From NCBI GenBank assembly GCA_002633005.1, contig NMRA01000008.1:1193974-1257973 (forward strand): a stretch of DNA of 64,000 nt, given 5' to 3'. The stretch comes from Phoronis australis (taxonomy: Eukaryota > Animalia > Phoronida). The notes beneath the pieces were generated by a model that saw nothing but the letters and a program-made list of their open reading frames with translations, searched no databases and had not been told where the DNA came from. Made by a program: the position numbers and the translations under genes. Below, in pieces: positions 34,508 through 61,022 of this stretch (position 1 is its first letter; each line of letters starts with the position of its first letter).

Positions 34508-34681
<174 letters not shown>

Positions 34682-35522
34682 CTAAAAACACACAAAAGTT
34701 GGCTTCATTAAGGGACAAGGTCACTTTACACGCAACCAAAACACAAACTAAGAACAAGGGCACTCAAAATCATGCAGAACTCTGAAACCTTCTATACGTT
34801 ACCATGGCTTCCATCCAAGAAAAATCCTTCATGGCAACAGTAAGTAAAAGAAAAGGTCAAAAAGCAGGGTTCACAAATAACTGCTTCCACTGAGCTCACC
34901 TGTCAATTTCAAAAGGCCAGTATCATGTGTGAGCGACGCCCGTGACTTAAAATCCTCTACAAAATTCTAAGCTCTTCCAAGCCCAAAATGAATTTTCTGA
35001 TATCACCGCCACTATCATACTGAACTACATTTTGTCACTGACTGGGAGAGTTGGTGGACAGCGTTTGGTCTTGCTGTGGACAGATTTAATGCAGTGAATT
35101 TGTAGACTACTCCTGAACATTAATTATGAATTCTTTGCGACCATCATGCTGTCAAATTGTCACTGCTACGTGGTGCGATATTCACAAGTCCCACAAAGCG
35201 TCTAATGCCTTAAAATGACGATTAACAGATGAAATAGCGTTTCGCCGCTTTAAACTTGGCAAGGCCTGCACACCAGAAGAAGAACTTGGCTGAAGCAGAT
35301 GGCAGTTTTGTGCTCCCACAACGCTAAATCAGTGTGGAAATAATTGGGATTTTGAAACAAATGCAAATGAAATGTTAATTGATAGAGCCAAAAACTTGAG
35401 AACTGCTTCAAGAAGAAAAGTGACCACCTTTCAACGATCAGAAAACAGAAGCGTACAACTAACTGTAATACGTTATTCTGAAATTAAAAATAACAAATAA
35501 TTGTTAAAAAATGCAGTATTCA

Positions 35523-35771
<249 letters not shown>

Positions 35772-36467
35772 TTAGTGTTTTAAAGTTGAAAGACAAGGAC
35801 TTTGGTGATATTTTCTCATAAAATAAAAAGTACTCATCTTATACGTGTTTCAAATGTTAAGTCACTTTTCTCTGAGCCCCAATTGATATACGTACCCAGC
35901 ATCAGTGAATTGACCTAGTTAGCATAACTGTCTTGTTCGTGCACTTCATTTGACCGTGAAAACAACATGAAATGATTTGATCAAAGACTAATTTCAATAG
36001 ACCATTTTGCCATTATATTTGAAACTAGACATTGTAAGTGAGCAGCTGTGAAACCCATATCCATTCGCTATGACGCTGCATCGAGTTTGTTCTAAAGGAC
36101 TCCACAAGTATGACTGTGAAGATTGTTTGAAATGAGCTTTTAAGTGCAGCCGACCTACACGGGAATAGGTTTCACTCTAATTTGATTTTACAGCTTGAGA
36201 GTCTCTCGGATTCGTGTCATTTTCCACCTGCATGCACTCTGTGGGTGATGCCTGAAATGGGCTCATTATGGCAGTGAACCTGAAACAACTGTTATTCATG
36301 ATGAATAACTCAACAAACACAAATACAGCCATAGTAAAAAAATAATAGTCCAGGTGGTAAGGTAAACGCTGAAGCAGACGTGCACAGGCCGCTCAACTGG
36401 ACCCATTGCACTGAATATATACATAAAACCTGAGCTGAGGAGCTAGAAACCTGACCAAGGGTTTGCA

Positions 36468-36536
36468 GTGAGCCCCAGTGGGACTCAAACCCGCGATCTT
36501 GAGTAAAGGAAGGCCACTTATCCCACTGCTTTCGGG
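36468..36536 (-). mobile_element. Degenerate tRNA-derived SINE head
   Basis: Minus strand AGCAGTGGGATAAG...GCGGGTTTGAGTCCCACTGGGGC: A-box-like and B-box-like segments without a complete cloverleaf. Confidence 0.4.
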
Positions 36537-36892
36537 AGACACTTAGTTATGGGGTGTAGATTGTGGGTATATACTCTCGAAAGCCAAGTGAGTCAACTCT
36601 TAATGTTTATGAAATTCCAGGTCCTAGATCAATTTTCTGTTAGCTGGTACCATTTCAGAGCCCAGGAAAGTAAGTTTTACTACTTCTTGTACTTTTGGTA
36701 CTTTATTGACAACTACACGTCAACCAATTTTCATTATAAATCTACTGGCACTTCAGACCTGGGCAAGATGTAATAATTAAAATTATATTTTGATGTCCCT
36801 CGACTGCCTGCCAAGTGCGTCACAAACAATGAACACTCACAATGTTAAAGCCAACTCCCACAGAATGCCAACAAACTTCTCAACACAATCTA

Positions 36893-36997
<105 letters not shown>

Positions 36998-37410
36998 CTA
37001 AAAATAATCAACACATGGATAATTTCAAAGGATACAGAGTACAAGTAACTTCGTTCTTAGACCACCAAACAATATATTAGACTCAAAAAAAAAGTGCGTC
37101 TGGGATTTTCAATTAGGCCCATTAAACACAGAATTCCGCTGTCAAAATTCCGTGAAAAACAGGAGCCTTCATTTTTGACAGTTGCGCTCTTGAATAAAAG
37201 ATTGTAAAAAATTTCAAACATTCCTTTGTAGCTAATTGAATAATGAGACACACTTTCCAAGTTTCATCAGAAAAAAAATCCTGTTTTTGAAAATAGTTTG
37301 ATATCTATTCAATATCACTTCTTTAAAAAAAATGAAAATTAGCAGCCAACATACACTACAGCTACTGATTGATTTCTCTGAACGCTTTTTGCTTATCATT
37401 TTACTATTAC

Positions 37411-37475
37411 CTCTTCCCCTTCACTACTAGCTTCAGATTTTTCATATCGTATCAACCAGTTGTCATTTCCTCGAT
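37411..37475 (-). CDS. PI4K2: PI4K2 exon 5 (DRGNDNWLI catalytic loop)
   Basis: Catalytic loop motif, 65 nt, phase 1-0. Confidence 0.93.
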
Positions 37476-37561
37476 CTACAACAACGCAGAAAGCAAAGCA
37501 GGATGACATCAGTTTAAACACGTGATCTTGCACTTGTCCACATTCCGGCTTAATGACAAGC

Positions 37562-37740
37562 ATTTTTAATTGTCTGGTCTGCACGCCACCTGTTGGCCAC
37601 ATCACGTGACCTAATAAGCGTAAGTGTAAAAAGATTTCTAGCCCCCACCAGGACATTCTGCAGAAACTCTAGACATTGAGCCATCAGGACCACCGGTCAA
37701 ACACAGGCCAACAGGTGGCGTGCCGACCAGACTTAAAAAT
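37562..37740. mobile_element. MITE with E-box-containing inverted repeats, copy 1
   Basis: ATTTTTAA..GTCTGGTC.GCACGCCACCTGTTGGCC / GGCCAACAGGTGGCGTGC.GACCAGACTTAAAAAT; same family as 49291-49429. Confidence 0.7.
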
Positions 37741-38454
37741 TTTGTGACCTATATTTCCACATCAGTTCAAGATTTACATATTTATGTACTCGAGCTTAAA
37801 GTGATAATCAAAAATGAGAAAGGAATGACCAGCTAGTGTCAACAAGTTCCCCCCAGACGACCTGACCATACCATAGTCTGAGTGCTATTAAGAACTGCTC
37901 TAAGCTAACATCAGGAAGTAGATAACAAGTGCACTGGCAATAATCAATGATTAATTTTACAAAATATATGCAGGATAAAACTCTACCGGGGGTTTTCCGT
38001 AGATAAGCCCACACGATGAAACGCCCACGATCAGTTCTTTGGTGTTACAACTTATGGTTCATTCGGAACATTTCCTCTTAAAAAGTCCACTCAGCATCAT
38101 CTTTTTGTCTCAAATTCAGTTTTGTGGAACATTCATCACTTATTAACACTAAATTTAAAAACACAGTTTTAAGTAAAAAATGTCAAAATCAGCACAACTT
38201 TGACTTTCCGTTTACAAGCCCCCCCTTTTCCAAATAATCGAGTGGCTGTTTATTAATTGGTGTTACTAAAGCACCTGAAAACTTTTATTTTCCGAATACA
38301 AGCCCATGGGCTTATTTCCGGAAAATCATGGTAAACATCACCAGTGGAGCATAAACAAAGCAGACATTCAGTCTCTCAAGAGCATAGGGGCCACAATGAT
38401 TACACAATTTTCTGGCTATACATCACAACCACCCCAGATACAAAAATGCCATTA

Positions 38455-38676
<222 letters not shown>

Positions 38677-39585
38677 CTAGGATATCAACAAATGTTTGAG
38701 GTCATAGGTCATAGTGCCAGTTTATGGGTTATAGGTCGTCGTCTGAGAATTGTAAAAGGCAAATACATCTAGTCACCTTTGAATAATGCATTTAAGAAGT
38801 TTTTATTGAAACGCTATGACGAAGGAAGAATATAATTTTGGACAAAGTGTGCCACAGGAAATTTGATATGTTGACCACACTCAATTTTTTGGTCACGAAG
38901 TTGAATTTTCTAAGTCTTAGACAGCACAAAAAAAACTATTTTACACTTTAGTAAAGTCTTTTTGAAATTCTGACTCTTCTATAGTTAAGTTTTGAAAATT
39001 AAAATTTATAGTAAAACTGGACGAAAGCATAGTCCTTTGCACTGGATACAGAGAGGCATTCACAGGCACATTCAATGGGAACAACTGCAGATTTAAATCC
39101 ACTTCATTCATCAAGAGCTCCACAACATGATAAATCTAGGGCTTTGTCAGTCTTGTTACAGCACCAGTACAATGGACTTCAACTGTACAAAGAGATATCA
39201 CAGATTAGGTGAATTCAAACTGGCCCAAACAGAGTTTACACAAGACTGAATGGTACTCCACACCACACTCCCTCTGTTTATTACATTCACAGCCACCCAC
39301 TGTAACAATGAGGTCAAGTCAAAATGCCAACTTTGAATGAAATCTCAAATTTACAGGGTGAGTTGAGCCACTCATTTCATCTACAAAGAGCAACGTGCAA
39401 TATCTAATAATAAATCACTGCATTAGAAACACAAAATGGCTTTCATAGCAAAATAAAGGTTTCTAGTGATGACACTAAATGTGGTTTTCAACTTTTTTGG
39501 TTGTTGGAAAAGTATCAAAACTACAAGACAATATTAGTGACTGTTAAACGCTACCTTCTAATGAAACAAATACAAAAACTGTTAC

Positions 39586-39717
39586 CTTTGGAGGCAGTCC
39601 TAGTCTGTGAAATTTCCGACCTATCTGTGGAAACTTTTGAGAAATGTTTTTCTTTGCCCGAGACTTTCCCCTGTCTATTGCGTTATAGTTAAACGTCTCG
39701 CTGGATAAACGCACAAC
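39586..39717 (-). CDS. PI4K2: PI4K2 exon 3 ([11 protein letters not shown]...FHRLGLPPK)
   Basis: Conserved RK-rich insertion, 132 nt, phase 0-0. Confidence 0.95.
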
Positions 39718-40343: not shown

Positions 40344-40559
<216 letters not shown>

Positions 40560-43500
40560 CTACGAGATAGAATAAAATATCTGTGAAAATATTATCAGAA
40601 TTTGTGAGGTACCTGGCCCATTCTAGATGTGGACGATGTGCGAATGAAGACTTCAGGTATCAGCTACAAATATTTTTTTCACTCACAAGATTTCCATCCT
40701 TTTTCGTAAGATAGTTTTGGCAAAACGGGCAAACTGGAAAATGTGACATGGCGCAGGCTTTTAAAGTCTGAATGACCATGCCATGCCGAATGTCTTGTAA
40801 AATCTAAGGTTTGTTCACAAGTTCAGTAGTGATAGTAGTGTAAATACATTAAGAAAATGTTACAAAAATATTGAGAAGCTTTGATGGAAGACTCACTAAC
40901 AAATAATATTCTGCTGAATTGCTAAAAGCCGCACGAGTCTTTAATGACATCTAAAACAGGTTCACAAATGACTTAAGAAGAGATAACCGGTAGTGGAAAT
41001 CCTTTGATGTTTAACACAACAGGCCCACCCCCAGGTACAAGGCCATCTCACACCCACAACTTCATCACCAACGTTCCTTTCCAATAAGCTCACTTGGTCA
41101 AGTCCACATCAAAACAACCTATTCTTTTGCCCAGATGGGCACAAATTCTTACAGGGTGCATTCATGGAAGTTCACAGGGTTATGCAATCACGCATAGTGT
41201 GTGACACACATCCTTGCACTTGTGTGGTACAAGAACAAGAGCTTTATTATATGAACATAAACCCACCTCAGTTTTTGCAGCTGGGTTTAAACTTGAGTGG
41301 ATGGGGAATAGTAAAAACTTAAACATCCACTTAACTCACACATCCCTGTAATGACATAGATCCTCAATTGTTCTCACTCCATGGCCTTTGTTCACGTGTG
41401 AGCAAAGGTGCCTGTGCATTCTGAGACGGGACTTTTTCTGTTTCAAATGGTCCCCTTATACGCTGCCACAGGAATGTGTTTCACCATGGCAATGAATTAA
41501 CAAAGCAGTAGGGGTGACAGGCAGTGAAACCACGGACTCCCCGAGATATTCTTTGCTCAATACTATGTGTTTGCCCTTGCACTTGTGATAAACTAATCCA
41601 GTTTCTGTTCTCAACAAGAGACTGTAAACACTGGAAAGGCAATGACTGTGAAGTGAGAATTTTTGCAATAAATACAACCTTCTGAAGCTGAGGGTCTTTG
41701 TAAGTTAAAGGCGATTCTGATCTGAGGGTAATTTCTTAATCACTGGAGGAGAATTTAAACATCTGATGTGATTTTGAAATATTTTTCAGAGGGATATGGG
41801 GTCCCAATATTCGCCCCCAAAATCGAAGCATCGAGGCCCCAGCAGTCCATGTGTTTTTAGGCATCACACTTTAGGTCATCACAAATTGAATTCATGAGGC
41901 TCCAAATCATTACAACTGCCCATGAAGGCAGATTTTAAAACTATGTAGCTTAACATTTTTGTAAATTGATCAAATGCTGACTACCTGGCACCAAATATTT
42001 TAAAATCTCACCAATCTAGGACACAGTATGGTGGATAAGAGGAATTTTAGTTCTGAAGTTCTCCAGCTAACATAGACAGTGTTATGAGAAATTGTGGTAT
42101 TCGCAACAATAACCTTTAGAAAAAGGTCAGTTTTGGTAAATATTCTTGTCCGAGACGTTTTCTGAAACTTGTACATCAGTATATCATGCTAATGCCAAAA
42201 AATTAGAGATTTACGACAGTTTCTCCACCGCATTGTGAGTGTGTGTGCTAATTAAATTGGAGAAAAATTGCCGTAGTCTACAACATAGTGGTGCTAATCC
42301 AATCTTGAGGCGAGAATTCTCATGCTTAGCAAAGACCATGTGAACGCAACAAAGCTTTTAATCCGCCTCTTGTTTTGCGTGGAACAAGGATTTGACATAC
42401 ATGCATGACAATAAGCCAGCAACTCAAAGAAACACGGGCCATGTGAATGAACATCTGTCAGTTTGTCGAATGCACTCTCCCACACCACTGTGCGCACATT
42501 GACCTATTTACGGACAAACGGACAGACAAATCACATTGCAAAGGATTGTGGGATGCCAATCATCCAAACCAGAATGAAACCAACCAATGGAAAAAGAGCA
42601 CACATCTACATTTCCAGCCAACAGGGGGCCACAAATCTCAAACTATAAAAGGTCAATGTCACCGACATCTTCTTGTGAGGTAATAAAACAAAATTAATAA
42701 GAGTGAATTCAGCAAGGCTTTCAACTAGACACTTAAATAGAGATCCTGCATGAACAAACTAGCACAACACAAAAAAATTGCTAGTGGTTCGACCACTAAA
42801 TGATTTTATCTGTATGATAGAACAACACTGAATGGATAGCTTTTTTCCACACAGGCAAAATTTTACGCATCCTATGAGTGTTTTTGGATCCCTCGTCAGC
42901 ATCCATTCTTAAACCAATGTTGTGTAGGGTTGGGTTGTGGCGTGTGACCTCACCATTTCCCTTATATGAAATTTCTTTCCGCTAACGTCTTGCAAATATG
43001 CAGTCTAACTTCACAGGTTTCTGTACAGCCACGTGGAGTAAAACTCAGCAGATGTCACGACATTTTGCATAAAACGATATTATAATTGTTCAGCTTGTGC
43101 AAACATTCATATCTTAGGCACTAATTCATGAAATAGCAATGAAGGTAAGAGGAAAGTTTGCCTTCTAAATTAACTAACGTCAAATACCGTATTACCCGAA
43201 ATATAAAGCCAGGCCCTTATACTTGAATATCAATCCAAGACCAAATAGCCTGGATCATCTGCAATTCTGGCATGAGCATAAGCAGCAAATACGGTCCTAC
43301 TGGGCGCTTGAACTTTGAGAATGCATCACTCCTAACAGCAAAAGCGAGCTGAAGTTTGGGGAAAACACAATACGCGTGAACACACTGAATAGCACAATGC
43401 AGCACTGTTCTACCACACTCAGACTTAAAAATGCTCGCGACAAGCAATATTCTATAAGTTGGTAAAAATGACTGAGGCTGAAATAACGAATATAACCTAA

Positions 43501-45553
43501 TATAAGGCCGTGGCCTTGAGGTGCATTTGCCGTTTTAACTGTTCTCAAATACAAATTATTTGGTTTATAAGACCATGGCCTTACATTTTGGGAATTACGG
43601 TAACCCTATAATTGATAACCATTCAGTATCAATCCAATCGGATGTAATCAGACAGTTATCAATATTCAAATGTATTTGATTCAGCATGCCTATTCCTGCT
43701 TTCAAACCATTCTCAGCCTCACACATACAACAAAGGCACTCTAATCAGCCGCTCGCCGTTACGTACTATAACTGTAAGAAGGTATACATGAGCGATCCAT
43801 TAAGGGAAACGAGCTGGCAAGTCCTTACTGACTAAAATTAAAACAACAGTTAAAAAATACACTTCTAATCGATGATAACAGTCACCCATCTTAAAGTTCG
43901 TATAGTGAAGACAACAATTAAAGATAAATGGATTCAACTGATGTATGCAATGTGCCCCAAATTCCACAGCTCACTAACCAATTAAACACCGTTACTATTT
44001 CGATCCAGTGAGCATGCTCACCATAATCTGGCATCAAATGAAAATCACAACATAGGTGGCGCAATGTTCGGGGGAAGGTCATGAAAGTAAATATTAAAAT
44101 ACATATTCTTAGAACAGGTGTACATCACAATATGCACATGTGGCCCAATCCTTCTTGTTATGCTAAAACAGACATCGATAACATGCATATGTTAATTGAT
44201 ATTTATTAATACTAAAGACTTACCAATGCCACAAGCTATACGCTTACCCTGCCCCTTTCTGATTTGCGACTGCCAAATGAGCAGCACTAAAGTTTCAACC
44301 AATCAGCATTCTCAATTAACTGTCACGCATGATGTTATCTTCACTTGATGAGAGATTATGTTGCGCGTCGGAGCGAAATAAGTGATAACCGTGTTTAATC
44401 ATTAGGTCGCCTGTGGAATTTGAGGCACATTGCTTTCATCAGATGGTTCCGTTTGTGTTTAATGGTTGTACCTTCACTAGATAAACCTTAAGTTAAGCAT
44501 CGATACCTGTAATTACTAATAAGTAGTGTCTTTTTAACTATCCCATTAATTTTAATTAATAAGATCTCGCCTGCTCGTCAGCCATATTGGATCGCTTTCG
44601 TGTACCTTCTATTTATCATAGTGTCATGATGAACGTTTGATTAAAGGTGCCTGTGATAAAGTCAATATAATCAACTTTCTTATGTCTGGTTATAAGAAAT
44701 GATGGTATTGACGATAAATCACATATAATGTAATTATGTCATGTAGGTAGTCAACCTGAGCTGTGTTCGGTAGACTCAAGACATTAGCAATGCACTAACA
44801 GTGAGAAATCTTCGCTTATGAACAGAAACGGAGAATTCTATCGCATTATTCATTAACTCTATCCCAGCAGACCAAACTCACGGACCAATCATCTTATTGG
44901 TTGTCATTTCGCAAGGTTACCCTGACCAGGAAGTTACCGAGAATACTTGTGAAAGACTCGCCTTTCACTTACATGATGAACGGTCTCTCGTGATCTCCCT
45001 TTCATCGAAAGAATCTAGGTCAGATACGAAACGCAGCTGTGTCCCAATATTCACCAAAGCACACATCTGCTAAGCGTGTAAGTTTTTTTCCCTTAACCTT
45101 TCATACAGTGAAATGTGCTTCTTGAGGTTTACCAAGCAAAACTGAGAAATCAAGCAGAGCTCTCACACAGTTTTGTAGTTCACCGACATTAAAGTTATCC
45201 ATAGGAGGCACAGTCATGGCACTGAAGCACTGCTGTGGACAATTCATCGTGTTACACGCTTAAATAAATAGTGGCAACATGATGACTATTTGAACAAAAT
45301 AAATACACAATACCAAATAGCAGGTGGCTATTAACTATGTCCCCAGATAACTTGATGACATTGAAGTTCCGCATTTCCATTGTATTGATGCTTAAAGCTC
45401 TCCCTATAGTCAATTTCACCGGTTAATTGCAAAATTGTCAATCCAACTGGGAGTTTCAGTTTTCACCCCACTGACAAATGCTCTATCAAACACCCACTAC
45501 ATCTATACGAGAAGAAAAAAGTCCGTAGACACAGACAGCCTGAAGTTACTTAC

Positions 45554-45787
45554 ATTGTCACAGTGCTTCATAAAATAACAACCACTACTCCCTTGTTTAC
45601 TCAGCTCCGGTAACAAGCCGTTGTCCAAGGCCAGCTCAACATCGCGAATCACTCTCGAGAATTCCAAGTCTTCGTCATAATTAAGAATCTCAACTCTACC
45701 GTCCACTTCCGACAGCACATTCGAGAGCTCTTTATAATCCTGACCACTCGATGTGTCAATCCGCGACTCATGACAACTGCCATTCAT
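45554..45787 (-). CDS. PI4K2: PI4K2 alternative first coding exon B (MNGSCH...PELSKQGSSGCYFMKHCDN); predicted isoform 417 aa
   Basis: Open frame from GCCATG, paralogous to exon A, perfect gtaagt donor in phase 0 at the homologous position. Confidence 0.8.
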
Positions 45788-48001
45788 GGCAAGACAGAGA
45801 AACGGACTGGATTAACAGTCGCCCAAAATACCACTACTAAACACAGAATCCATCCTCATCCGCATATCCTTCAGTAGGCTTCAAATCCTGAGAGGCGAAC
45901 GGACAGTATTCCATTGCTGCCTAACAACTAGTCAACAACAGACTAGAGATATAGGTAGACACAGGTACAGTGTCATGAAAATCAATCAACAGCAGACACT
46001 TCTATGGTCAACTTCACCCAAAACAGGGATAGGATTAGCAGTCACACCACTTAGAACAAGTCTGCACTCAGCACAACTTGCAGTCTGTTCTGAATAAGTA
46101 CTCAGCATGAGCTAGGCCTGCAGCTGTAGCCTCCTAAATTGTCACTGGGAATATGCAGGTAGATTAGCTACTGTGATACCCTGCATATTTACCTGGCATG
46201 TGCTGTCTGTGACAAGCTAATTTGCATCAGTTTTGTCTGAGGACTATTATATTTGACCCACAGACCCATAGACTGGTTCACGCTGTGTTAGTAAAATGAA
46301 TATCTTCTGATCAGTTGGCTAACCTTAGTGCCAATTTCTAAAGATTACAAATAACCTGGCAGGCAGCATGGGTTTTATTGAGCACCAGCTGATCACAGCA
46401 ACACCCCCTTGCCCATCATGTCAATCCTATTAGGAACAAAATCGCACAATTTGCATGCAAGTATAATCCTATTCTATTACCAGGAGCAGAATTATGAGAA
46501 TGAACCCTACCTACAAATGTTAATCTGAAAAATAATCAGCATGAACCAGCATAGCAAATACTTGCCAGGGAAATACATCACCAGGCCATATTTGACCCTA
46601 ATCATTTAGTTGCCTGAGGTGAGCTGACAGAGATCTGAGACATGTAAGTCTTTAAGTTACTGAATATAGAATTTCTCCAGCATGATTATCTTCTATTGCT
46701 CCATTGAAACTTGTTTCCCTCAAAATTCTACCACAGCACATTTGGTTTGATCCAGTTTACTGAAAGCTGAATGAATCTTTAATATAGTTAGAATTGCACT
46801 GCACCCTCAAAGTGACAACATGGGCACTTTTAGGGTCAAAACTTCAAAATGAGACAGAAAAGTTCTAGACAGTTATGGCAAGTGACAAAAGCCAGTAAAG
46901 AGACCACACTGATCATAGAAGAAACATGGAAAGCAAGAAGTGTTAACGCCATATTTTATGACTTGGAGTATATCTTTGAAAGTGATAATGGGAGCATTTA
47001 TGTTCACCAGGTAGCGCTACTGAATTATAGCTTTTAATCTCTGTTTTTAATACCTGAATAGATTGAGAGCAGTTCATCGGAATTGAGGCATCTGTGTGCT
47101 AATGGTCCTATGTAAGTACCTGAATGTACTTTTATAAAAAGAACCATTGTTTCACCAAGAAAATTTATAGTCATGCACGGGCAAACGAAAATAATAGCCA
47201 CCTGCATAAAGACATATTTGTATGCTCCTACCTATGCTAATGTATACCAGGAACTAAACAAAAAAACTATTTTAGCATAATCTATGCCAAACAAAGTGCA
47301 GTTGTATTCAGCAACAATTCGTTAATGTGAAAACAAAAAATTCTGCAAATAGGTGACATTTGCACTAATGACGTATTTCGTGGGCTCATCATGCAGTCTT
47401 ATTTCCCAGCACATCACATACTTACTGGACAATTCAGTGATTTGCGGTAGATAATTTTCGCCACAAAACGCGTTCAACCTACTTCATATTCACATCGTCG
47501 TTGTGTCTACATGTTGTTTTAAATTGATTCAGCCAAGCAATCACACAGATAAGGAAACAGAAAGCAAGGTCCACTTCAACTTAGTAAAAGTCCCAGGATA
47601 GTAATTAAATTGCTGAAGTAAAGAACCTTGAAAAATTAAATTCTTTAGCTCAAAGCCAGAGCTTGTACAGAAATCATTGGTCGTTCCAAATACAAGAGTT
47701 ATGATCAGTGACAAAAGATTATTTACCTTGATGTTACAAATTACGGGGACACCTGCAAATGTTGCATCAGAGGCTATTTTCAAGAATTTAAACAACTGAT
47801 ATTTGAGAAATATAAGGAGCGGCAAAATTGCTCATGTCCCAGTCTTCAGAATCAAGAAAATTTAATTTTGGCTTGAATTTTGGTGTCCCAAGATTAAGAG
47901 ATTGAGACCCAAACTGGAAAACGTTTACCGGAGAGCGCATTCGACGCCACTTTCAAAACGTATTTTCGTTGGAAGTTTTCGCAAAAATACCGAGTGACCC
48001 T

Positions 48002-48365
48002 TTAAAAAATACTAAAGCCTGTTTTGATGATTTTAACCAATCATTGTCACCTGCTAACATATCATTGGTGACAATCTTGACAAATAAAGGAAGGAATCAA
48101 CTCACAACTCTGCCCCTATCTCACAAATTGCACACTATGGTTCTTGGTGGGTGGTCTTTTCCCATAGTTGCGTTGTTTTTCGCTAAAAAGCATAGGCCAC
48201 GCTTGTCCATTTTTCAGACTTTGAATTAGTTTTCAAAATTTCTTTAAGACTTTTAAGGGCTGTCGAGGACTACAGACTGAGTATTATTTTGCTTCCAAGA
48301 ACTGATTGGGAAAGTCATTTTTAGTAACCGTTAATAGGCCAAAACCGGGTTTGGTATCCTTTTAA
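48002..48365. mobile_element. TTAA-flanked non-autonomous DNA transposon (Kolobok-like), copy 2
   Basis: Colinear with 6405-6749 and ends in GGTATCCTT|TTAA; 60 nt from the PI4K2 exon A donor. Confidence 0.65.
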
Positions 48366-48424
48366 GTTACAACTTTCCCAACCAGGTTTTCTCCAAGTTA
48401 CAGAAAAATTTCAAGCCAACATAC

Positions 48425-48718
48425 CCCATCTTTGTTCTTTGCAAAGTAACTTCCACTGGATCCTTGCACAATACGTTCGGGATAGATTGCAAAGTCAATA
48501 GCTTCCTCAACCTCCCTAACAACGTGTTGAAAGTCAGGATCGTCTCGGAAGAAGTTGTATTCCTCAACATCCGATTGGTTGCCTCCAAGTAAAGGAATCT
48601 GTTCGTGGAAACCCCCACGAGTTGGCGACCTCGGTGAGCCTATGGCCGTCGATGAAACACAAGGAGCAAAGGTGACATCTGGTGGTGGTTGCATGCTTGA
48701 ACCATACCCCTCTGACAT
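48425..48718 (-). CDS. PI4K2: PI4K2 first coding exon A (MSEGY...EQIPLL...YPERIVQGSSGSYFAKNKDG); predicted isoform 437 aa
   Basis: Canonical DDPDF...YPERI.QGSSGSYF motif, gtatgt donor in phase 0, acceptor at 48733-48734. An alternative in-frame ATG lies at 48727. Confidence 0.92.
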
Positions 48719-49290
48719 GCTTCTCATAACCACTAAAATATTCACAAAAATTATATTAAAACACAGATGTTGAGAAAATCAACCAGTTATCTTTTGTACA
48801 AAGGCTAAATTAAATTCAGGATTCATTAGGAACACATACATATTCGATTACTCGGCATTGGCAATTTTAAGCTCAAGCGTTGGACTTTTGGTCTTAATAG
48901 AACATTGTTTTATAATAATGGATCACTGGCCAGTAACTAATTTGTTCATGGAGCCTAAAATATTAGGTTCCAATAGTTGATTATGCAATGTGTAGTCATC
49001 ATAATGCAACACAAGGAATCATACAGTGGTGTCGCGGGGCTAGTGTCAAAATATAGCTAGGGAATCATGCGCGTATAATTTACAGAATAGTTACGGAACT
49101 TCACACAGCTGTGGTGGCTCTGCTCGTCATGAAATCTATATCAACATGTAGAGCTTTGAATCGCAGGGGGCATGCAAAATCAGGGAGTCAACTGACACTC
49201 ACCTTGTCCATTGCAGCCGCTCAAGAAGAGAAAAACGAAGATCTAATAAATGCCATTTTCTTGCATCACTTTTCCCTTTTTCTCGCAAAT

Positions 49291-49429
49291 ATTTTTAAGT
49301 CTGGTCAGCCTGCCACCTGCGGCCACATCACGTGACCTAATGAATATCAGTCTGAAGACTTCTACCCCAACCGGGGTCATTAGGTCACGTGATGTGGCCA
49401 CAGGTGGCGTGCTGACCAGTCTTAAAAAT
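49291..49429. mobile_element. MITE with E-box-containing inverted repeats, copy 2
   Basis: ~50-bp inverted arms including GGCCACATCACGTGACCTAATGA / TCATTAGGTCACGTGATGTGGCC. Confidence 0.75.
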
Positions 49430-52400
49430 GCTTAGGCTATACATTTCCTCACCCGTTTAAGAATTACATACTTATATCTTTCGGCTTTGTAACAAAGAAA
49501 AGTCTGTAGTCGACTTCAAAACAGTATGCTTGTGACACGCGCACATGCCATTTGCTCGCTTTTTCTGACATCTTTAGGGAAACTGACAACTTCACCGAAG
49601 CAAAATTCGCTCAGAAATTTGGTTTGCTGGTAAAAAATACTAAAAACTAGAAATGAAGTCAATCTAATTCCTTCTACTGTAATTTGTTGTGAACAGTACA
49701 CAACCAAGTGGAAGAAGAAAATTTAATTGAACGATCAAACAAAAAAAAATTGACCAATAGGTGGCATTCTCTTTGATGGCGTTCACAGCCAATGCATGGG
49801 ACGCTCCACAAATTGAGCAGCAGAATAATAGAATAACTGCATTTTTAGCACCGGAAACTATTTTGGTTTAACCTCAAGGAAGAGTGTACTCATTTTTAAT
49901 GAAATTATTTTGTGTCAGATTTCGTTTCACTAATTTCATATTTAAGCAGACAATCCCAAACCTGTATATTTATACAGCTTTGTACCAAGGGGATAATGGT
50001 ACTATTTACTATTTAGGACTGATGTAATTTGCACAGACTGTAAATGGCTGGTTCCAATCATGCAAAGTCAAATAAATAAGTCTTAGAGAATAATTTGTAA
50101 TTATGTCTCCGCCTCATCGCTGCTCAACATGGCCAAGCAACAAAGATCTGCACTTGAAAACCCCGAGGACACAATCTATACCAAATTGATGGTTAACTAA
50201 ACACACTCGCAATTTACTAACTTTTTCAAGAGGTCTTTTCTATGCATTATCAGTTTTTACAATGAAACAACACAATACAATAACGTATAAAGGATGTTAC
50301 AGAAGAGGATAATAGAAAAATATGTCTTGACCTTCAATGGATAAAATTGTACCCCCGAGAGGCAAAAATAAGAGCTTTCACTAAAAACCAGCAGTAATTT
50401 TTTATTCAAATGACCCTAGCTCCAACTACTGTATTGCTGAATCACTTCAATTTCACGACAAGACTTGCATGACCTGCCGTGAATTGGGTAGCTGGAGTGT
50501 GAATGTAAAAAAAAATCTTTATCTTTTATGGATATATGTCTTTGTATTTGTTCTTTATGACTTTGTCATTAAAAATAACAACCGAATCTTAGATCAACAA
50601 TAGTATTGAGTGCCCACTGACAAAAGCTCTAAAGTATCCAATGAGTCTCCAGAACAAACATGCACGGGAGATAACTACAAACTTAATCCCATGAAGAGCG
50701 CGACAGCATTTGTTGACTTGAGTGGTAACAGCTGACACCTTTTTATTGGCTAATGTCATTCAAAAGCTGACAAAATGTTTTAGCTAGCACACCAGGTAAC
50801 AGAAAATGTTGCATTTGCTCGATTGAGCATGCGATCTATGGTCAAAATAGAATTTTAATTTTCACATCAAAAATACAAAATGAGAAGGATTTACTTCCTG
50901 GTCAGTATAACTTGAAATTTGTACATCTGTCATATTAACGCAGCAATATGTCTCTAAAATTTTGAGCATGGCACAACAACCAACCTCTGAAATACAGACA
51001 AAGAAAATCAAGAGAGTTTTCTCTGCTCTCATAGAATAACTTTTTGATAATACATGTAAATCCAGACATTTTTCTAATGCTGGTAGACTTGAGTCTACTT
51101 CTCATTCAAAAATGGCTTGACATAACTCACACGTATGCAAGGTCAGCCAAGACAGACATTTGATCGATTCCTAGTGACAATTTCCAATATGAACCAATCA
51201 GTTGTCAAATCTGTCCGTTGACCAGGTTGACCTACTGCACTTCTCAGAATTGCCAGAGAGCAGCCGTGTAAATATTAAATAACAAATATGCAACAATCCT
51301 GTACTAATCTCATTAACCACGCTTAATTGGATTTCAAAAACAGAAAAAAGAAGAAATGAGAACTAAGCATTACACTTTATGTAACTGTCCATTTGGCATT
51401 CAAAGCATGCATTTGGCCAAGCCCAACTCATCTCATTTAATGTAAAGATGAGCTCGGAAATTTTGAGAATGAGCTTGGTGTTACCATAACTACCACGGCC
51501 AGGCATGCAGTAAAGGGTAATGGTCGGATGAGAACCACTTTTTCCCACTGAATAACGGGCATCAAACTGGTTCTCAAAACACTGGCATGTTATATCCGAC
51601 TTTTGCCCAGTAATGAATATCAATATGAGACTTCTGAAACCAATTGACGTTGATCACATGGGTCAATTTAGGAGATTTCTTCAGAGGGTAGCACAGGGGA
51701 ACATTCTGACAGTGTGAAAACTCTTACATTAGTATTACAGTATGTGAAGTTACATGTGATGCATTTTAAACAAAAGTTAAATTGCACCCTCGTTGTCTAG
51801 AGGCCACTGGTATTCAGTCACACGTGATCAGTCGCCACACTGACACTAGAAAGTCTCCCATTGAAAGCTTTTATCAGACTCAATGGTGAATTATGCACAC
51901 TTATACTTACTAGTAGTTTCAGTTTCAGTGTTCTGAAACACGACATTAAAGTCAAAGTACTTTTTTACACAATTTTAGAAAAAACAGAAAAAAGCGGGAG
52001 AGTGATGCAAGTAAAATACTGTCATTTACTGCTTCTTTGAAAGCTTTATAAACCATGTACTAATGTCAATATGAACTTTCTTTACATGGGTACTTGCTCA
52101 ATCAACATCATCAGGTTCTCATCTTTTGTCTGAATCAAACTTGGTAGGCATATAAATTGCCAGGGGAAATCCTGTGACAACCATACAGTCGTGGCGTGGC
52201 GACTGAGACTTACCAGAAGTGACAAGCAACTAATGGGCCCAGATGGAAGTAATAACGACTACACCGTAGTCAGTTGTCCATAGACCTGTGCCCCTAAACT
52301 CCGCACAAACTAAATGCCCCATGCCTGGTGACCAAAGTATAGTCCTGAGGACCAGTGTGAGTGAAGAATCTGGTCCTCAGAGCTGAAGTTTGAACCCTGA

Positions 52401-53110: not shown

Positions 53111-53501
53111 TTGATTTGTTCAACAATCCTTTTTGGTTCTATGCATGATGAAGCTTGTCTTTGGCAATTAAGATGGTTTGGCAAAGAATTCCAATTCCAC
53201 TTTTTTTGGTTGCCGTTAAGTTTTTCCGTGTGCGCGATAAGCGCAGAGAATTTCAGTTGATGTCACACGAGTTAGACAAAGACAAGCGCAAGACTGAGCG
53301 AAGCGTGTGACCTTGAACGTGACACTTGCAAAATCCAGCATGGAAAGACATGAGCTGGAGTTTGCATCCATTCGATTTTTTGTTCGTCAACAGGCGTGAT
53401 TTTGCCCAACTTCCTCAAAATGGCGTCCACTCGAGCAAATGGCGACAAAATAAAATTTTCATTGATACGTTCAACTTGACTAAATCGTTTGCATAATCAT
53501 G
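53111..53501. promoter_or_regulatory. Putative bidirectional promoter with non-coding first exons of PI4K2 (-) and TCERG1 (+)
   Basis: Minus-strand gtgagt donor at 53110-53105; plus-strand ETS-like ACTTCC and two YY1-like AAATGGCG motifs (53409-53444); gtatgt donor at 53502; locally CpG-richer. Confidence 0.55.
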
Positions 53502-55293: not shown

Positions 55294-55448
55294 ATGTCGG
55301 ACGACGAGCAAATGCAGGAGGATGTCGGCGCAAACGAAGAGAATAATCACGAAGCGCCGCATGAATTTGAGCGTGGTGAACGTGACTTTATGATGAACAG
55401 ACCGCCTAGGTTTCCAATGAGGGGAAGAGGTGGCTGGAGAGGTCCAAG
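55294..55448 (+). CDS. TCERG1: Transcription elongation regulator 1, first coding exon
   Basis: Acceptor at 55227-55228, ATG 55294 (MSDDEQ...RGRGGWRGP), gtgcgt donor, phase 2. Confidence 0.8.
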
Positions 55449-56107
55449 GTGCGTAAACATTCACCTTGCCATGATGTGCAATTTTGCATTTTTTGCAATT
55501 TGTTGAATTTGTGTTACGGTAATTCTTCAGTTATTTCGTACAAAATTAATTGCCAAGATGGTTGCTTTCTTTTTCCATAGGCTGAATACCTTGCTAAAAA
55601 GAATGGTATTTTACCAACCAAATGTTGCTTTGTAACATCTACTCACTGCCAACCGTGTTAGTAATAGGCTAAGAAATTGCAAGTACAGTCGGCTGTAGTG
55701 TAGATTGTGACAAACCATCATTCAAAATCAAATGTGCTGGTTTTAGCTTGACGTTTTTGCAAACGGCGGTTGTCAAAGAAATTTGGCGAAATGTGGGATG
55801 TGCGATCTTCACAATATTTCAAAAGAATTCCTGGATTATGAAATGATCATCCTCTGTTCTGTTGCAGTGTTGGCGTTTCCTGCTCAAGAATTAGCAACCC
55901 AAAATTACGAAATTTTGTTGATAAAATAGACAACCTCCAAAATGGCGATTTTGACGTCTGTTTCAGCTTCCACTAAACTAAGATCTTGATGGTCAGTCTA
56001 GTTTCTAAATCAACCAATTGGATTGAAGTACAAACTAGGCCATTAAGAGAAGGATTAAATTCAGTTTTTGTTCGCAGTTATGATTCACAAACTTTCCATA
56101 TTTCTAG

Positions 56108-56411
56108 AGGGCCTCCACCACCAGGCTACTTTGGACGCGGACCGCCACCACCACATGCCAGGTTCCGAGGACCCCCGCCATTTGGACATAGAGGACCCCC
56201 ACCATTTGGTCCAAGAGGACCTCGCGGACCACCAAGAGGACCCCCGCCATTTGGTCCTCGAGGTCCTCCTCCCCCATTCGATCCTAATTACGGCCCACCT
56301 GGCCCTCCTGGACCCCCTAACATGGGAGGACCACCAGGACCCATGCCACCCCCAGGAATGCCTCCCCCCATGGGCATGCCCCCACCTGGCATGCCACCCC
56401 ATCCAGGAATG
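56108..56411 (+). CDS. TCERG1: TCERG1 exon (RGPPP / PPGM proline-rich region)
   Basis: Includes PPPFDPN..P, reminiscent of the TCERG1 N-terminal proline-rich region; phase 2-0; gtaagc donor. Confidence 0.9.
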
Positions 56412-56633
56412 GTAAGCCAGTTTATCAGGAAATTCTTTTGAATGCTGTGATAACGAATGATTGGTTAGAAATTCAATAACCTGTAAAGCTGGCTTTGAAA
56501 GTTTAACAACTATCATGACTGATGATGTATGCTAATCCACACAGATAACTATAACTTTCAGTTGTGACTGTATTCTCTCATAAGTGAACATCAGATTTCC
56601 CTTAGTTTCTCCATTCGTTTCATTTTCCTTCAG

Positions 56634-56765
56634 CGGCCTCCGATGATGCCTCCACCGGGTATGCCACCTCCAAACTTTTCCGTACCACCTCCAGGCTTCG
56701 GACCACCGCCTGGTAGCCAGCCAGAACCTGAGTTATGGGTAGAAAACAAGACGGCTGAAGGAAAG
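56634..56765 (+). CDS. TCERG1: TCERG1 exon (start of WW1: ELWVENKTAEGK)
   Basis: Matches TCERG1 WW1 (cf. IWVENKTPDGK); phase 0-0. Confidence 0.92.
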
Positions 56766-57614
56766 GTAACGTCTTTAGTGTCATAACAGCTTTGTTAATC
56801 CAAAGCGTTTCACAACTATGCTGCGGGTCATTACATTCTTTTAGTGATGGTTGGAATTTGTGAACTTTTCCCAGTCGATTAATTAGAAAATCGTACGGAT
56901 TGGAGGCACGATTTTCGGTGTTAAGTGACGTTTCTGGCCAGGTTTTTTGCTTAAGGCCTGTACGACTGGATACTCAAAACCTGCATGTTCCGTTTCCCTA
57001 GTAACACTCCATTGATGTTGGCTCTTTAAAGAGTTTTTGCAATATCAGAGGAGACTTCCTGTCATTTAACTGAACTATTAGGGATGTCACAAAATCTAAT
57101 TTAGTGTCTCGGAATGTTGATTCGGCGTTTTTCTTTAGCGACATTGGGTGACAAGTCGTTGAATCCTTGAAACACTATCTTTGATGCATCTCTACTCACT
57201 GGTGAGGTCACTAGAGTTTCCACTTGCCTGTGTGGGTGCAGCAGTTTGACTGTTCTTAAACATGAGGGTCATTATCCTAACTGGAAACTAAATTTTCACC
57301 CTAATGTTGTGAAATTTATGCTGGTGACAGTCTTATTTCCGAACTCTTTTCAATCACTTCTCCGAGCCAGTCAGTTACCATTGATAAATCCAAGTTACAT
57401 CGAGCACTGTTTCAGTAATACAACTATTACTTTAAATTAGGACATATTAATAACACCCAGTATTTGCTTTTGCCACGTGTTATTTTCTCAGCAAGAACTA
57501 TAGAAAACCAGTTTAGTGGTCGTGGGTGGTTTTTGAGGGTGCATTTCACAGTTGCCAATTCAGCTAATTAGCACGGTGCATCCTATATTGCTTTGTTCCT
57601 GTGTTCATTAACAG

Positions 57615-57759
57615 GCGTACTACTATAATGCCAAGACCAGAGAGTCGGCCTGGACAAAACCGGAAGGTGTCAAGATCATCACTCAGCAGGAGGTCGAGCA
57701 AATGGCTCAGCAGGCTATTCAGGGTCAAGGACCTTCAGCTGCCACGCCAGATGCTCAAG
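57615..57759 (+). CDS. TCERG1: TCERG1 exon (rest of WW1: YYYNAKTRESAWTKPEGVKII)
   Basis: Close match to TCERG1 YYYNARTRESAWTKPDGVKVI; phase 0-1. Confidence 0.93.
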
Positions 57760-58508
57760 GTTTGTTTACAATGGAGTCGGTTTTAGGCGATGTATTGATT
57801 TGATTCAAAACCTCAAGTGATTGAAAAATTCCCCTCGAGGTTCGAGTCACTAGTAATTCACACTGGTAACAATTTGAAAGAGCACAAAATGTTAGTTTTG
57901 GCTACTTGAGGCAGAGCCTATGAGGACTTGCAACAGGGTGGGGGTGCTATTGATTATGATCGGGAGATAGAATTTTTCCTCACTCAAAAGGCACACGCAC
58001 CTTTCCCCTTGGTTGAACAAGGGCCCTGACCACTTTTATCCTTGATCAAAGATAGTTGTGGGACACAAGGGGTTTGCAGCATCTTGACTATAAATGGGCA
58101 GATTGACTTATAGAAAGCTTCTGTTTGTGACAGGCTTGAAATATGTCTAGCACAGGCGTAATTAGCTACTCCATGCTGATGTCGGACTTTTCCATTCTTC
58201 GCGAAACGAGGACTCTTCCCTTTTATTTGTCTCCTGAGTTCATGGATAGATGTGTGGTGCTTCTAATGTGCTTATCTTTTAGTGAGTTAAACTGTTACAA
58301 AAGTGTAAATAAACGACATGAGAGATGATTTTTTATTTCGATTTTGTGACTGAAGTTGCTAGGGAAATTAAATGAACAGAAACATTTCCGTGGATCCTTC
58401 CTGTACTGAACAAAAACATTTTCTGTGAACTTTTACTAAATTTAACCAAAGCAGGTTTTCTCGTTTATGTCTAGCACGGTAACTGAAGGCTGCTCATTTC
58501 TTGTCCAG

Positions 58509-58786
58509 CAGGTGGCGCCCAGACATCCGAGGAAGGTGGTAGCCAAGAGCAGGAGGACGCAGCCCCCCAACAACACCACCAACAACAGCAACAACAACAG
58601 CAACAAAAACAGCTGCCCCCGCAACAACAGCCAGTTCAGCCTTTGCCTGGTTGGCCAGGCTTCCAGGGCCCCCCACGTGGCATGGCTCCTCCACACATGA
58701 CTGGCATGCCCCCTCCAGGGTTCAACCCCAACATGATGCCACCGCCAGGCTTCCAACCGCCTGTACAGCAACCCCCTCGACCTCAG
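58509..58786 (+). CDS. TCERG1: TCERG1 exon (polyQ and proline-rich linker)
   Basis: CAGCAG tandem acceptor, open frame, CAG|gtaagc donor, phase 1-0. Confidence 0.85.
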
Positions 58787-59029
58787 GTAAGCTGGCTGCT
58801 GTGAGTCATAATTGTTACCTCTTGAGAAAATTTGAAACATAAGTCAGTTGATTTGCTGGAGTCCCGTTTCCAGTAAAACTAAAAAAAAAGTATATATATA
58901 TATGTATAAGCATGTTGTTTAACATCTGCACATAGATGTCTTATAAGTAAGAAGTATTGTGCACTCTCAGTTTGATATATGATGCATTCTATTCATTAAG
59001 TCTGTTTGGATTCCTGTAAGAGACCGTTT

Positions 59030-59100
59030 GTTCCAGTAGCTCAGTGGACTGGAGCATCTACATTGAAAGAAGGTCCAGGGTTTAAGCTCCGTTCAGGACA
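59030..59100 (+). mobile_element. Degenerate tRNA-derived SINE head
   Basis: GTTCCAGTAGCTCAGTGG A-box with a decayed B-box (GGTTTAAGCTCC); no full cloverleaf. Confidence 0.4.
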
Positions 59101-59588
59101 GAGAGCTTTTCAGACTCAATTGCAGGTCATGTGATGTGACCATGTGACCAACCAGTGGCGTGTATGCAAACTAATAATTATTACTGATGTATCAATTGTG
59201 CTTAAACATGCAATCATTTTCCCAATTGGAGTGAATTCTGCTGCCTTTAATTATCCTAATGGTGGGAAGGGTCTTGTAAAGCACCAATGAAAATTAAGTC
59301 TAGTTGTTGACTTCCACTGGGCACAATTGACCTATCACCAGGATTTTGAGTGTCTGCTTAACTGACCAATCAAACGCAACATTCTTGGCATACCTTTGTT
59401 TCCAAGCTGCCATTTTACCCGACAAACATCACGTTGCCGGGTAAAACTTATTGTTTGCTTGTTGACATTTCGTAAGGGTACAGAGCTTGCGATAAGTCAA
59501 ATGAAATGCGTGTTTGTCAAGGCAATCATCAATTTTACCTCCTTGTTTTAATGTTGTTGTTATGTTTCATTTTCCATTGATTTTCCAG

Positions 59589-59715
59589 CTGCAGAAGCCC
59601 CCGGAGGTGGCTGAGTGGTCTGAACACAAGACTGGTGACGGCCGTGTGTATTACTACAACTCCAAGAGTATGGAGTCGACGTGGGAGAAGCCCAAGGTGT
59701 TGGCAGATTGGGAAG
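59589..59715 (+). CDS. TCERG1: TCERG1 exon (WW2: [27 protein letters not shown])
   Basis: Canonical WW domain, phase 0-1. Confidence 0.93.
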
Positions 59716-60486: not shown

Positions 60487-60695
60487 CTTCTTCCAATCCA
60501 AGTGCCCCTCCTCAACAGGCTCCACCGGTTCAACAAGCACCGCCCACTGCTCTGGTACAGCCGACGCCTCAGCAGGCCGCACCTGCCGCTGAAAAATCAG
60601 AGCAGATCCAGGCTGTGTTGAATGGCATTCAAAAAGAGGCTGCAAAGGAAGAAGTCGCTATGGAATCGCAGTCATCTCAAGAATCTACTGAAGAG
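60487..60695 (+). CDS. TCERG1: TCERG1 exon (P/Q/A/E-rich linker)
   Basis: ttgtag acceptor, phase 1-0, open frame. Confidence 0.8.
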
Positions 60696-61022
60696 GTTTG
60701 TGGATTTCGTTACAAAAGTTTCACAGTTTATGTGCTCTGTGGAGTTAACAAAGGATGTACATTGTGTTTGTAGTGGAAGGCTGTACTCACCAGGTGGCAG
60801 TATGAAGTCCCTCTTGATCTTCTGAGTGCATGCTTTTGAACATTTAGGATGGTTATGACACTAGCGCCTCCTAGTGAGTTAAAAGCCGTCTGTTGTTTTG
60901 ATGTAAGTTCAAAAGGTTTTCACTTGCATAGTTTTCTTAGGAATTCAATAGATCTGAACACTAATCGTCCATGCTTCGTAATGTACGGGATATTGTCAAC
61001 TATGTTTCTTTTGCATTTTTAG

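What the first reader, a model, noticed from the sequence alone, without database searches (positions are those of the whole stretch)
45554..48718. One PI4K2 gene with two duplicated, alternative first exons that swap the kinase N-terminal helix and ATP-binding P-loop
Seen: exon A (48425-48718) encodes DDPDFQHVVREVEEAIDFAIYPERIVQGSSGSYFAKNKDG. Exon B (45554-45787) encodes EDLEFSRVIRDVELALDNGLLPELSKQGSSGCYFMKHCDN. Both frames are intact, both end in a strong phase-0 donor at the homologous codon, and both fit the single shared exon 2 (KKVGVFKPK). Their DNA has diverged strongly while the protein motif is kept, which suggests an old duplication under selection. Known: vertebrates have two paralogous genes (PI4K2A/B) differing mainly at the N-terminus, and GSSGSYF is the nucleotide-binding loop. 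Inference: this lineage makes two PI4KII isoforms from one locus by exon duplication, and isoform B has a Ser-to-Cys change in the P-loop that could alter ATP handling or redox sensitivity.
Basis: partly seen in the sequence, partly recalled or inferred. Interest (0 to 1): 0.8.

Follow-up and report, generated by a model that had tools for sequence, protein, structure and literature searches.

The report
Duplicated first exon swaps kinase loop
This animal's single lipid-kinase gene (PI4KII) splices either of two duplicated first coding exons onto one shared enzyme body, an arrangement also found in snails and clams, and the second exon changes ATP-contacting residues and replaces the known sorting signal, so it likely sends a differently tuned enzyme to different membranes.

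Summary
Confirmed and extended. Exons A (48718-48425) and B (45787-45554) are intact homologues. RNA-seq shows both spliced to exon 2: A 4/2/15 reads, B 3/0/2. The host is probably a non-mollusc spiralian. B is not lineage-specific: B-type isoforms sharing a body with A-type isoforms occur in automated annotations of 19 bivalve and gastropod genera, and A-B-exon 2 order recurs in unnamed animal contigs. B changes the equivalents of human R129 (to Leu, the most constant change), I130 and S137 (usually Cys). Best reading: an ancient duplicated first coding exon that likely retargets the kinase and retunes its nucleotide/membrane loop. The Cys is Ser, Ala or Thr in some B exons, so a redox switch is weak. 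Untested: start sites, activity, localisation. Some relatives lack B. The kind is known (PRKG1, FYN); ten literature searches found no description for PI4KII.

The parts
48425..48718 (-). Exon A, first coding exon of the canonical isoform (98 aa; isoform 437 aa): PPPDVTF, SP-rich tail, dileucine motif, helix, G-loop with Arg and Ser at the R129/S137 positions
   Evidence: an in-frame ATG also lies at 48727
48587..48604 (-). EQIPLL, acidic dileucine motif of the [DE]xxxL[LI] type, matching the AP-3-binding ERQPLL of human PI4KIIalpha
   Evidence: human motif from PMC3708732 passages; binding in this species not tested
45554..45787 (-). Exon B, duplicated alternative first coding exon (78 aa; isoform 417 aa)
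45725..45736 (-). YKEL, the Y-[E/K]-x-hydrophobic motif conserved in B tails (candidate YxxPhi signal)
   Evidence: function inferred
45602..45604 (-). Leu62 of B, at the position of membrane-contacting Arg129 of human PI4KIIalpha
45578..45580 (-). Cys70 of B, at the position of beta-phosphate-binding Ser137 of human PI4KIIalpha
45788..46100 (-). Transcribed region upstream of B's ATG (approximate 5' limit), containing short upstream ORFs; own promoter or upstream acceptor not resolved
   Evidence: depth 8.8/2.6/1.2 in bin 45711-46064, at most 0.85 in 46065-46418, zero in 46419-47126; uATGs and AG sites
40359..40559 (-). Shared exon 2 (catalytic Lys in FKPK, CCPCC palmitoylation motif)
34508..39717 (-). 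Shared exons 3-8: 39717-39586, 38676-38523, 37475-37411, 36997-36898, 35719-35526, 34681-34508 (stop)
   Evidence: RNA junctions; translation to one open 339-aa body

Best explanation
One PI4KII gene splices either exon A or its duplicate, exon B, onto a shared kinase body, and the B form, which likely dates from before molluscs and this animal diverged, is predicted to be a still-active kinase sent to different membranes with a retuned ATP/membrane-contact loop. Shown: both exons are intact, both are spliced to exon 2, and B-type isoforms on identical bodies exist in many molluscs. Inferred steps: (1) each exon is probably chosen by its own promoter, with B the minor, sample-dependent form; (2) A would be sorted through its acidic dileucine like human PI4KIIalpha, while B, which lacks it, would use its Y-E/K-x-hydrophobic motif (adaptor mu subunit or phosphotyrosine site); (3) Leu for R129, Ser for I130 and Cys for S137 would change membrane coupling and ATP affinity while the catalytic Lys and Asp residues and CCPCC stay shared. 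This would give a one-gene counterpart of the vertebrate alpha/beta division of labour, reached independently.
For: Junction reads for both exons. 22 stored proteins carry the B-type loop, from 18 named mollusc genera plus unnamed ones; Mercenaria makes 19. Six A/B protein pairs have bodies 98.8-100% identical, three of them within one named species (Sinanodonta, Dreissena, Mya). X1/X2 or same-locus-tag pairs also appear in Patella, Haliotis asinina, Gigantopelta and Mercenaria. A Bulinus model joins A then B then body. Profiles built from molluscs only score window B 60.9 bits (B) versus 44.2 (A) and window A 78.3 (A) versus 51.6 (B); all 14 other non-mollusc A-type controls prefer A. Window B falls with mollusc B exons at 94/87 in one tree. 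In 19 mollusc B exons picked by the loop Cys/Thr alone, the R129 position is Leu in 19, I130 is Ser in 18, Q132 is Lys/Arg in 19. Tails: dileucine 15/15 A and 0/19 B; Y motif 16/19 B (shuffle mean 2.5, max 8) and 0/15 A. Six distinct full genomic B-like exons found after the motif was defined all carry YE[EQP][LI]. dN/dS among four related B exons is about 0.24-0.6, and window B versus L014 has saturated synonymous sites with dN 0.35. Roles of R129, I130, S134, S137 from PMC3974213; dileucine/adaptor dependence from PMC9524207 and PMC3708732 passages.
Against: B junction support is thin: 5 reads, none in X2. No protein, activity or localisation data exist. Single origin is not proven: the tree has 47 columns, the B clade is unstarred, its parts are unresolved when more divergent exons are added, and an AU test does not reject window A and B as sisters (p 0.21). 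The non-mollusc placement is likewise unstarred; window inside bivalves plus gastropods is not rejected (p 0.078). No second exon was detected between A and exon 2 in L065, L074 and L079, close relatives of the two-exon locus L068, so B can be lost. No B form was seen in the chiton or two nemertean clusters (one member each where looked up). The Y motif was defined after seeing B tails, and YxxPhi is a common motif; exon A has one too (YNFF). In another paralogue group the second exon (L069, L075, L077, L080) mostly keeps PL[V] and lacks the Y motif. Weak same-strand reads upstream of A and AG sites upstream of both ATGs leave a shared non-coding exon open.
Confidence: 0.62

Rival explanations
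1. Exon B exists mainly to supply a second promoter or expression pattern; the two proteins are functionally near-equivalent and the loop differences are tolerated drift.
For: A:B ratios differ among samples (junctions 4:3, 2:0, 15:2). The 137 position varies among B exons (Cys, Ser, Ala, Thr). Non-Arg residues at 129 occur in full-length fungal-type PI4KIIs such as P0094, P0105 and P0110, the last with Leu and Cys as in B. Overexpressed vertebrate paralogues compensate for each other (PMC9524207 passage).
Against: B-specific residues are fixed across bivalves and gastropods (Leu 19/19, Lys/Arg 19/19, Cys 18/19) where A is nearly invariant for different residues, and the tail motifs are reciprocally conserved.
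Confidence: 0.2
2. B encodes a low-activity, redox-gated or scaffolding form: loss of R129 and of the S137 hydroxyl would weaken catalysis, and the loop Cys would act as an oxidation switch.
For: R129A lowers human PI4KIIalpha activity and S137 binds the beta-phosphate (PMC3974213). Cys is present in 18 of 19 mollusc B exons and in the window. The FYN duplicated exons likewise differ by a loop Cys (supplement of PMC8373072).
Against: Cys is absent from Patella and from five of seven distinct B-like genomic exons (L017, L041, L064, L068, L078). A basic residue 2-3 positions downstream in B could replace R129 (inference). All catalytic residues are shared.
Confidence: 0.12
3. A and B are internal, mutually exclusive exons downstream of a shared non-coding first exon (for example near 53200-53450), chosen by splicing rather than by promoters. 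This changes the control step, not the proteins.
For: Acceptor-like AG 14 nt before A's ATG and several 100-360 nt before B's; low same-strand depth upstream of A; four Mya transcripts encode one B protein.
Against: No junction into A or B from upstream within 40401-51000 reached the 3-read listing threshold; coverage runs about 300 nt upstream of B's ATG and then drops to zero; each B exon examined has its own in-frame Met behind a stop. An upstream exon beyond 51000 was only covered, which hid 31 joints.
Confidence: 0.25
4. Exon B of this species is an independent, lineage-specific duplicate that converged on mollusc-like residues, or a decaying copy.
For: AU test does not reject window A plus B (p 0.21); window B groups with unnamed non-mollusc exons, and their link to mollusc B is open; a fungal-type protein shows Leu and Cys can arise separately; a second exon with A-like tail exists in other loci.
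Against: Same position (between A and exon 2), same loss of dileucine, same Y motif, same Leu-Ser and Cys, and mollusc-B profile preference; open frame with saturated synonymous sites and spliced reads argue against decay.
Confidence: 0.1

Closest known systems
Tandem exon duplication-derived N-terminal substitutions (Martinez Gomez et al., PMC8373072; 39 human N-terminal cases, e.g. PRKG1)
   Same: Duplicated 5' coding exons give homologous alternative N-termini on one shared body; old and conserved (passages; supplement row).
   Different: PI4K2A and PI4K2B have no occurrence in that paper's text or supplement table. Here the swapped exon reaches into the catalytic N-lobe rather than only a regulatory tail.
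FYN alternative duplicated exons (FynB/FynT)
   Same: Homologous exons swap the start of a kinase domain including the glycine-rich loop, one version bearing a Cys (exon translations in the PMC8373072 supplement; PMC2119231 abstract start).
   Different: FYN's exons are internal, in a chordate protein tyrosine kinase; here they are first coding exons of a lipid kinase and also carry the targeting tail.
Vertebrate PI4K2A/PI4K2B paralogues
   Same: Two type II PI 4-kinase forms with different N-terminal adaptor-binding signals (AP-3 versus AP-1; PMC9524207 passages).
   Different: Two genes; both keep a dileucine signal and an A-like loop. Exon B is not PI4K2B-like; the 'type 2-beta-like isoform X2' labels on mollusc B isoforms are automatic names.
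Decapod and Gigantopelta PI4KII alternative N-termini
   Same: One gene, several N-termini, some lacking the dileucine tail.
   Different: They join before the conserved helix, so helix and loop stay shared and the tails are not homologous duplicates.

Membership tests
Type II PI 4-kinase (PI4K2/Lsb6) | PI3_PI4_kinase domain with catalytic Lys and Asp motifs | tested here: met
   PF00454 on exon 2; FKPK, DYIIRNTDRG, IDNG in the spliced body; 72-81% identity to named spiralian PI4KIIs
Type II PI 4-kinase (PI4K2/Lsb6) | CCPCC palmitoylation motif | tested here: met
   in shared exon 2
Type II PI 4-kinase (PI4K2/Lsb6) | Conserved G-loop with R129, I130, S134, S137 equivalents | tested here: inconclusive
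   met by exon A; exon B keeps the glycines and S134 but has Leu, Ser and Cys at the other three
Type II PI 4-kinase (PI4K2/Lsb6) | PI4P-forming activity of isoform B | not testable with these tools
   needs a kinase assay
Tandem exon duplication-derived N-terminal substitution | Two homologous exons in tandem with the same phase | tested here: met
Tandem exon duplication-derived N-terminal substitution | Each exon is joined alternatively to the same downstream exon | tested here: met
   both junctions seen, no A-to-B junction listed (low counts for B)
Tandem exon duplication-derived N-terminal substitution | Choice by alternative promoters | tested here: inconclusive
   no start-site pile-ups and no upstream junctions listed; AG sites present
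Tandem exon duplication-derived N-terminal substitution | Cross-species conservation of both exons | tested here: met
   single origin supported but not proven
Vertebrate PI4K2B | Separate gene with dileucine AP-1 signal and PI4K2B-like loop | tested here: not met
   B is an exon of the same gene, lacks a dileucine motif and matches PI4K2B chains worse than A does
YxxPhi adaptor-binding signal | Binding to an AP mu subunit | not tested
   only the consensus and its conservation were tested (consensus from PMC10235903 passages)

The most novel reading that the evidence does not exclude
Spiralians have carried for over 500 million years a hidden second PI4KII enzyme encoded by exon duplication, in which one exon switches both the address (dileucine to tyrosine signal) and the chemistry of the nucleotide pocket (different ATP affinity, nucleotide preference, membrane gating or thiol regulation), giving a natural, evolution-tested variant of the family's most conserved loop.
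Probability: 0.3. Interest if true: 0.72.

Novelty: new member of a known kind. Interest (0 to 1): 0.52.

Why it matters
PI4KII makes the PI4P pools that drive endosome, Golgi and lysosome-related-organelle traffic. Invertebrates are usually treated as having one form (own knowledge). If the reading holds, molluscs and other spiralians have two forms from one gene, differing at residues that structure and mutagenesis tie to ATP and membrane contact and in their sorting signals. That gives a directly testable natural experiment on how the G-loop and the tail set activity and location, in tractable species such as Aplysia, oysters and mussels. It also shows that the automatic 'beta-like X2' label hides an independent solution to the vertebrate alpha/beta split. 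The general mechanism is known, and B isoforms already sit uncommented in automated annotations, which limits the surprise.

Tried and rejected
No whole genome is held for the window, so close-relative dN/dS for the window's own B exon and a genome-wide paralogue check were impossible. The run search listed no indexed RNA holder; raw-read runs were laid instead. The first lay did not list the B junction among 15 shown joints, with 31 hidden; the narrower lay showed it. A word-based search with exon B alone found nothing, and Pfam finds no family in either exon. The AlphaFold model of a B isoform (Aplysia P0046) was unusable (mean pLDDT 41.8), so no fold search or register check was done. The Atlas search gave no informative cluster. 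A DNA repeat search did not link A and B, as expected from their divergence. CpG profile was not diagnostic of promoters. The broad motif count defined B partly by the Leu, included one fungal-type protein (P0110) and near-duplicates, so the cleaner mollusc count is used; it omits the chimeric Bulinus model. In one search the Bulinus row was its A segment by mistake, corrected. Rejected: third copy in the window; B as PI4K2B orthologue; in-frame A-to-B inclusion through the AG just before B's ATG (out of frame by inspection, no junction listed). No B-type form among listed members of Branchiostoma (8 of 8), decapod, tick, mosquito and fish clusters (only 15 of 30 and 15 of 33 members listed for two clusters); this is absence from annotation only. 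Earlier-finding look-ups returned nothing. PMC11499380 (abstract only) proved irrelevant.

Full report
Observation. Both exons are present on the minus strand as described. A is 48718-48425 (98 aa) and B is 45787-45554 (78 aa); both are open from ATG to a phase-0 GT donor at the same codon, and both fit exon 2, which starts at 40559. B matches A at E 4e-8 in the window, with the next hit at E 0.7 and no third copy. Over the last 40 codons 19 residues are identical, 12 of those with different codons; the flanks are unrelated. This is an old duplication of one coding exon, not a recent segmental copy.

Expression. Three raw stranded RNA runs of the same species label were laid. Six junctions define a shared 339-aa body with the catalytic motifs and CCPCC. 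In the narrower lay, A-to-exon 2 had 4, 2 and 15 reads and B-to-exon 2 had 3, 0 and 2, from about 18-19% of each run. Depth over B's 5' part was 8.8, 2.6 and 1.2, against 5.3, 2.7 and 8.0 over A's, so usage appears to vary by sample, on small counts. No A-to-B junction and no junction from upstream was listed at the 3-read threshold within 40401-51000. Coverage extends about 300 nt above B's ATG and is zero at 46419-47126. That fits a separate promoter, but AG sites exist before both ATGs and weak same-strand reads lie upstream of A, so a shared non-coding exon is not excluded.

Host. The body is closest to the nemerteans Tubulanus (81%) and Lineus (78%), and groups with them outside the molluscs without starred support. 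AU tests did not reject placing it among bivalves plus gastropods (p 0.078) or with deuterostomes (p 0.059). A non-mollusc spiralian is the best reading.

Distribution. Cluster members showed B-type isoforms on bodies identical to A-type ones in Sinanodonta (different locus tags, identical 339-aa body) and Mya (X1/X2). A search with the Sinanodonta B region returned 85 proteins; 22 stored proteins had the B-type loop, from 18 named bivalve and gastropod genera plus unnamed ones, and Mercenaria adds a nineteenth. A Bulinus gene model concatenates A, B and body, giving the same order as the window. The HMMER search with window B gave 72 proteins, 14 with a loop Cys; the best (P0176, 62%) and several others are unnamed single-exon read-throughs ending at the same donor. 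Of 80 metagenome loci fetched with exon 2, six (five distinct) hold two loop-bearing exons before exon 2. L068/L071 have A then a B-like exon with the Y motif. L069, L075, L077 and L080, a separate paralogue group by exon 2 identity, have a second exon that mostly keeps PL[V]. B-like exons next to exon 2 also occur in L014, L017, L041, L044, L064 and L078. L065, L074 and L079 span A to exon 2 with no second exon detected, so B can be lost. No B-type form appeared among listed Branchiostoma, arthropod or fish cluster members; decapods and Gigantopelta vary the tail by joining before the helix.

One origin? Mollusc-only profiles assign window B to B (60.9 versus 44.2 bits) and window A to A (78.3 versus 51.6); 14 of 14 other A-type controls prefer A. 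A 47-column tree puts window B with 18 mollusc and 7 unnamed B-like rows at 94/87. With more divergent exons the link between mollusc and non-mollusc B groups is unresolved, and window A plus B is not rejected (p 0.21). Shared position, tail motifs and diagnostic residues make one origin likely but not proven. Purifying selection is seen in relatives: four related B exons give dN 0.22-0.28 against dS 0.4-1.0 over 36 codons, and window B versus L014 has saturated synonymous sites with dN 0.35.

What B changes. Both exons match the human PI4KIIalpha N-lobe segment ending in the G-loop. In PMC3974213 (passages and section 6 read) S134 and S137 hydrogen-bond the ADP beta-phosphate, I130 lines the adenosine cavity, and R129 contacts the membrane, with R129A lowering activity. 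In 19 mollusc B exons picked only by the loop Cys/Thr, position 129 is Leu in 19, 130 is Ser in 18, 132 is Lys/Arg in 19 and 137 is Cys in 18. Window B has Leu, Ser, Gln (with Lys at 131) and Cys. In the seven distinct genomic B-like exons Leu is constant but 137 is Cys in two, Ser in four and Ala in one. The tails differ reciprocally: an acidic dileucine in 15 of 15 mollusc A and 0 of 19 B; Y-[EKQD]-x-[LIVMF] in 16 of 19 B (shuffle mean 2.5, maximum 8 of 1000) and 0 of 15 A. Window A has EQIPLL and window B has YKEL. The motif was defined after viewing B tails, but six of six full genomic B-like exons found later carry it. The human dileucine binds AP-3, and both vertebrate paralogues need theirs for localisation (PMC3708732 and PMC9524207 passages); YxxPhi is the mu-subunit signal (PMC10235903 passages). 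That B's motif binds an adaptor, or an SH2 domain when phosphorylated (recalled, no call), is inference.

Mechanism. The most likely reading is two isoforms from one gene: canonical A, dileucine-sorted, and a minor B with a different address and a retuned loop, still active because the catalytic residues are shared and fungal-type PI4KIIs also lack the Arg. Rivals are promoter-only divergence, a low-activity or redox-gated form, splicing-level choice, and independent origin.

Comparison and novelty. This belongs to the known class of tandem exon duplication-derived N-terminal substitutions (PMC8373072 passages and supplement rows). FYN is a precedent for duplicated exons that swap a kinase glycine loop, one with Cys. 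PI4K2A and PI4K2B do not occur in that catalogue. Searches aimed at PI4KII isoforms in invertebrates listed no paper describing this, judged from titles and abstract starts; the library omits most subscription journals and bioRxiv supplements. B isoforms are already present, uncommented, in automated annotations. Verdict: real, expressed, ancient and apparently undescribed; a new member of a known kind, interest about 0.5.

Noticed in passing
L069, L075, L077, L080 (second exon; e.g. L077 about 6050-6350, L080 about 7800-8075), also L059, L067: In a separate PI4KII paralogue group the exon between A and exon 2 mostly keeps a PL[V] motif and lacks the Y motif: either a second, independent duplication of exon A or a remodelled B.
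   Followed up: partly
window 45812-45976 (-): B's transcribed upstream region holds several short upstream ORFs (25 aa from 45914; 17 aa from 45865, in frame with B and stopping 8 codons before its ATG), which could limit translation of B.
   Followed up: partly
window 45750, 45752: RNA reads carry two allele differences in B's tail; one gives Ser13 to Trp, no stop.
   Followed up: yes
window 43761-44639: Long inverted repeats (arms 43777-43856/44531-44610 and 43911-43994/44386-44469) look like a MITE in the B-exon 2 intron; reads join its flanks with 20 other letters, suggesting an allele or copy without it.
   Followed up: no
window 49291-49429 and 37572-37743: A short palindromic repeat family (53-nt arms, 92% complementary) occurs upstream of exon A and in a downstream intron and attracts many reads from other loci.
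   Followed up: no
window 32501-34507 (-): Continuous same-strand RNA depth of about 10-25 indicates a PI4KII 3' UTR of at least 2 kb.
   Followed up: no
window 55297-62610 (+): A TCERG1-like gene (WW domains) lies head-to-head with PI4KII; a CpG-rich stretch at about 53200-53450 between them could be a promoter.
   Followed up: no
window 46001-47000: CpG observed/expected falls to 0.06-0.09 just upstream of B's transcribed region, against 0.83 over exon B; unexplained.
   Followed up: no
window 14461-28914 (+): Large open exons (714, 679 and 461 aa) of one or more genes; only a weak c-SKI Smad4-binding-domain match in 27532-28914.
   Followed up: no
P0110 (unnamed, 566 aa): A fungal-type PI4KII has Leu and Cys at the same loop positions as exon B, apparently by convergence.
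   Followed up: no
P0119-P0121, P0134-P0146, P0174: Decapods and Gigantopelta annotate several short alternative N-termini joined just before the conserved helix, some conserved across decapod genera and lacking the dileucine.
   Followed up: partly
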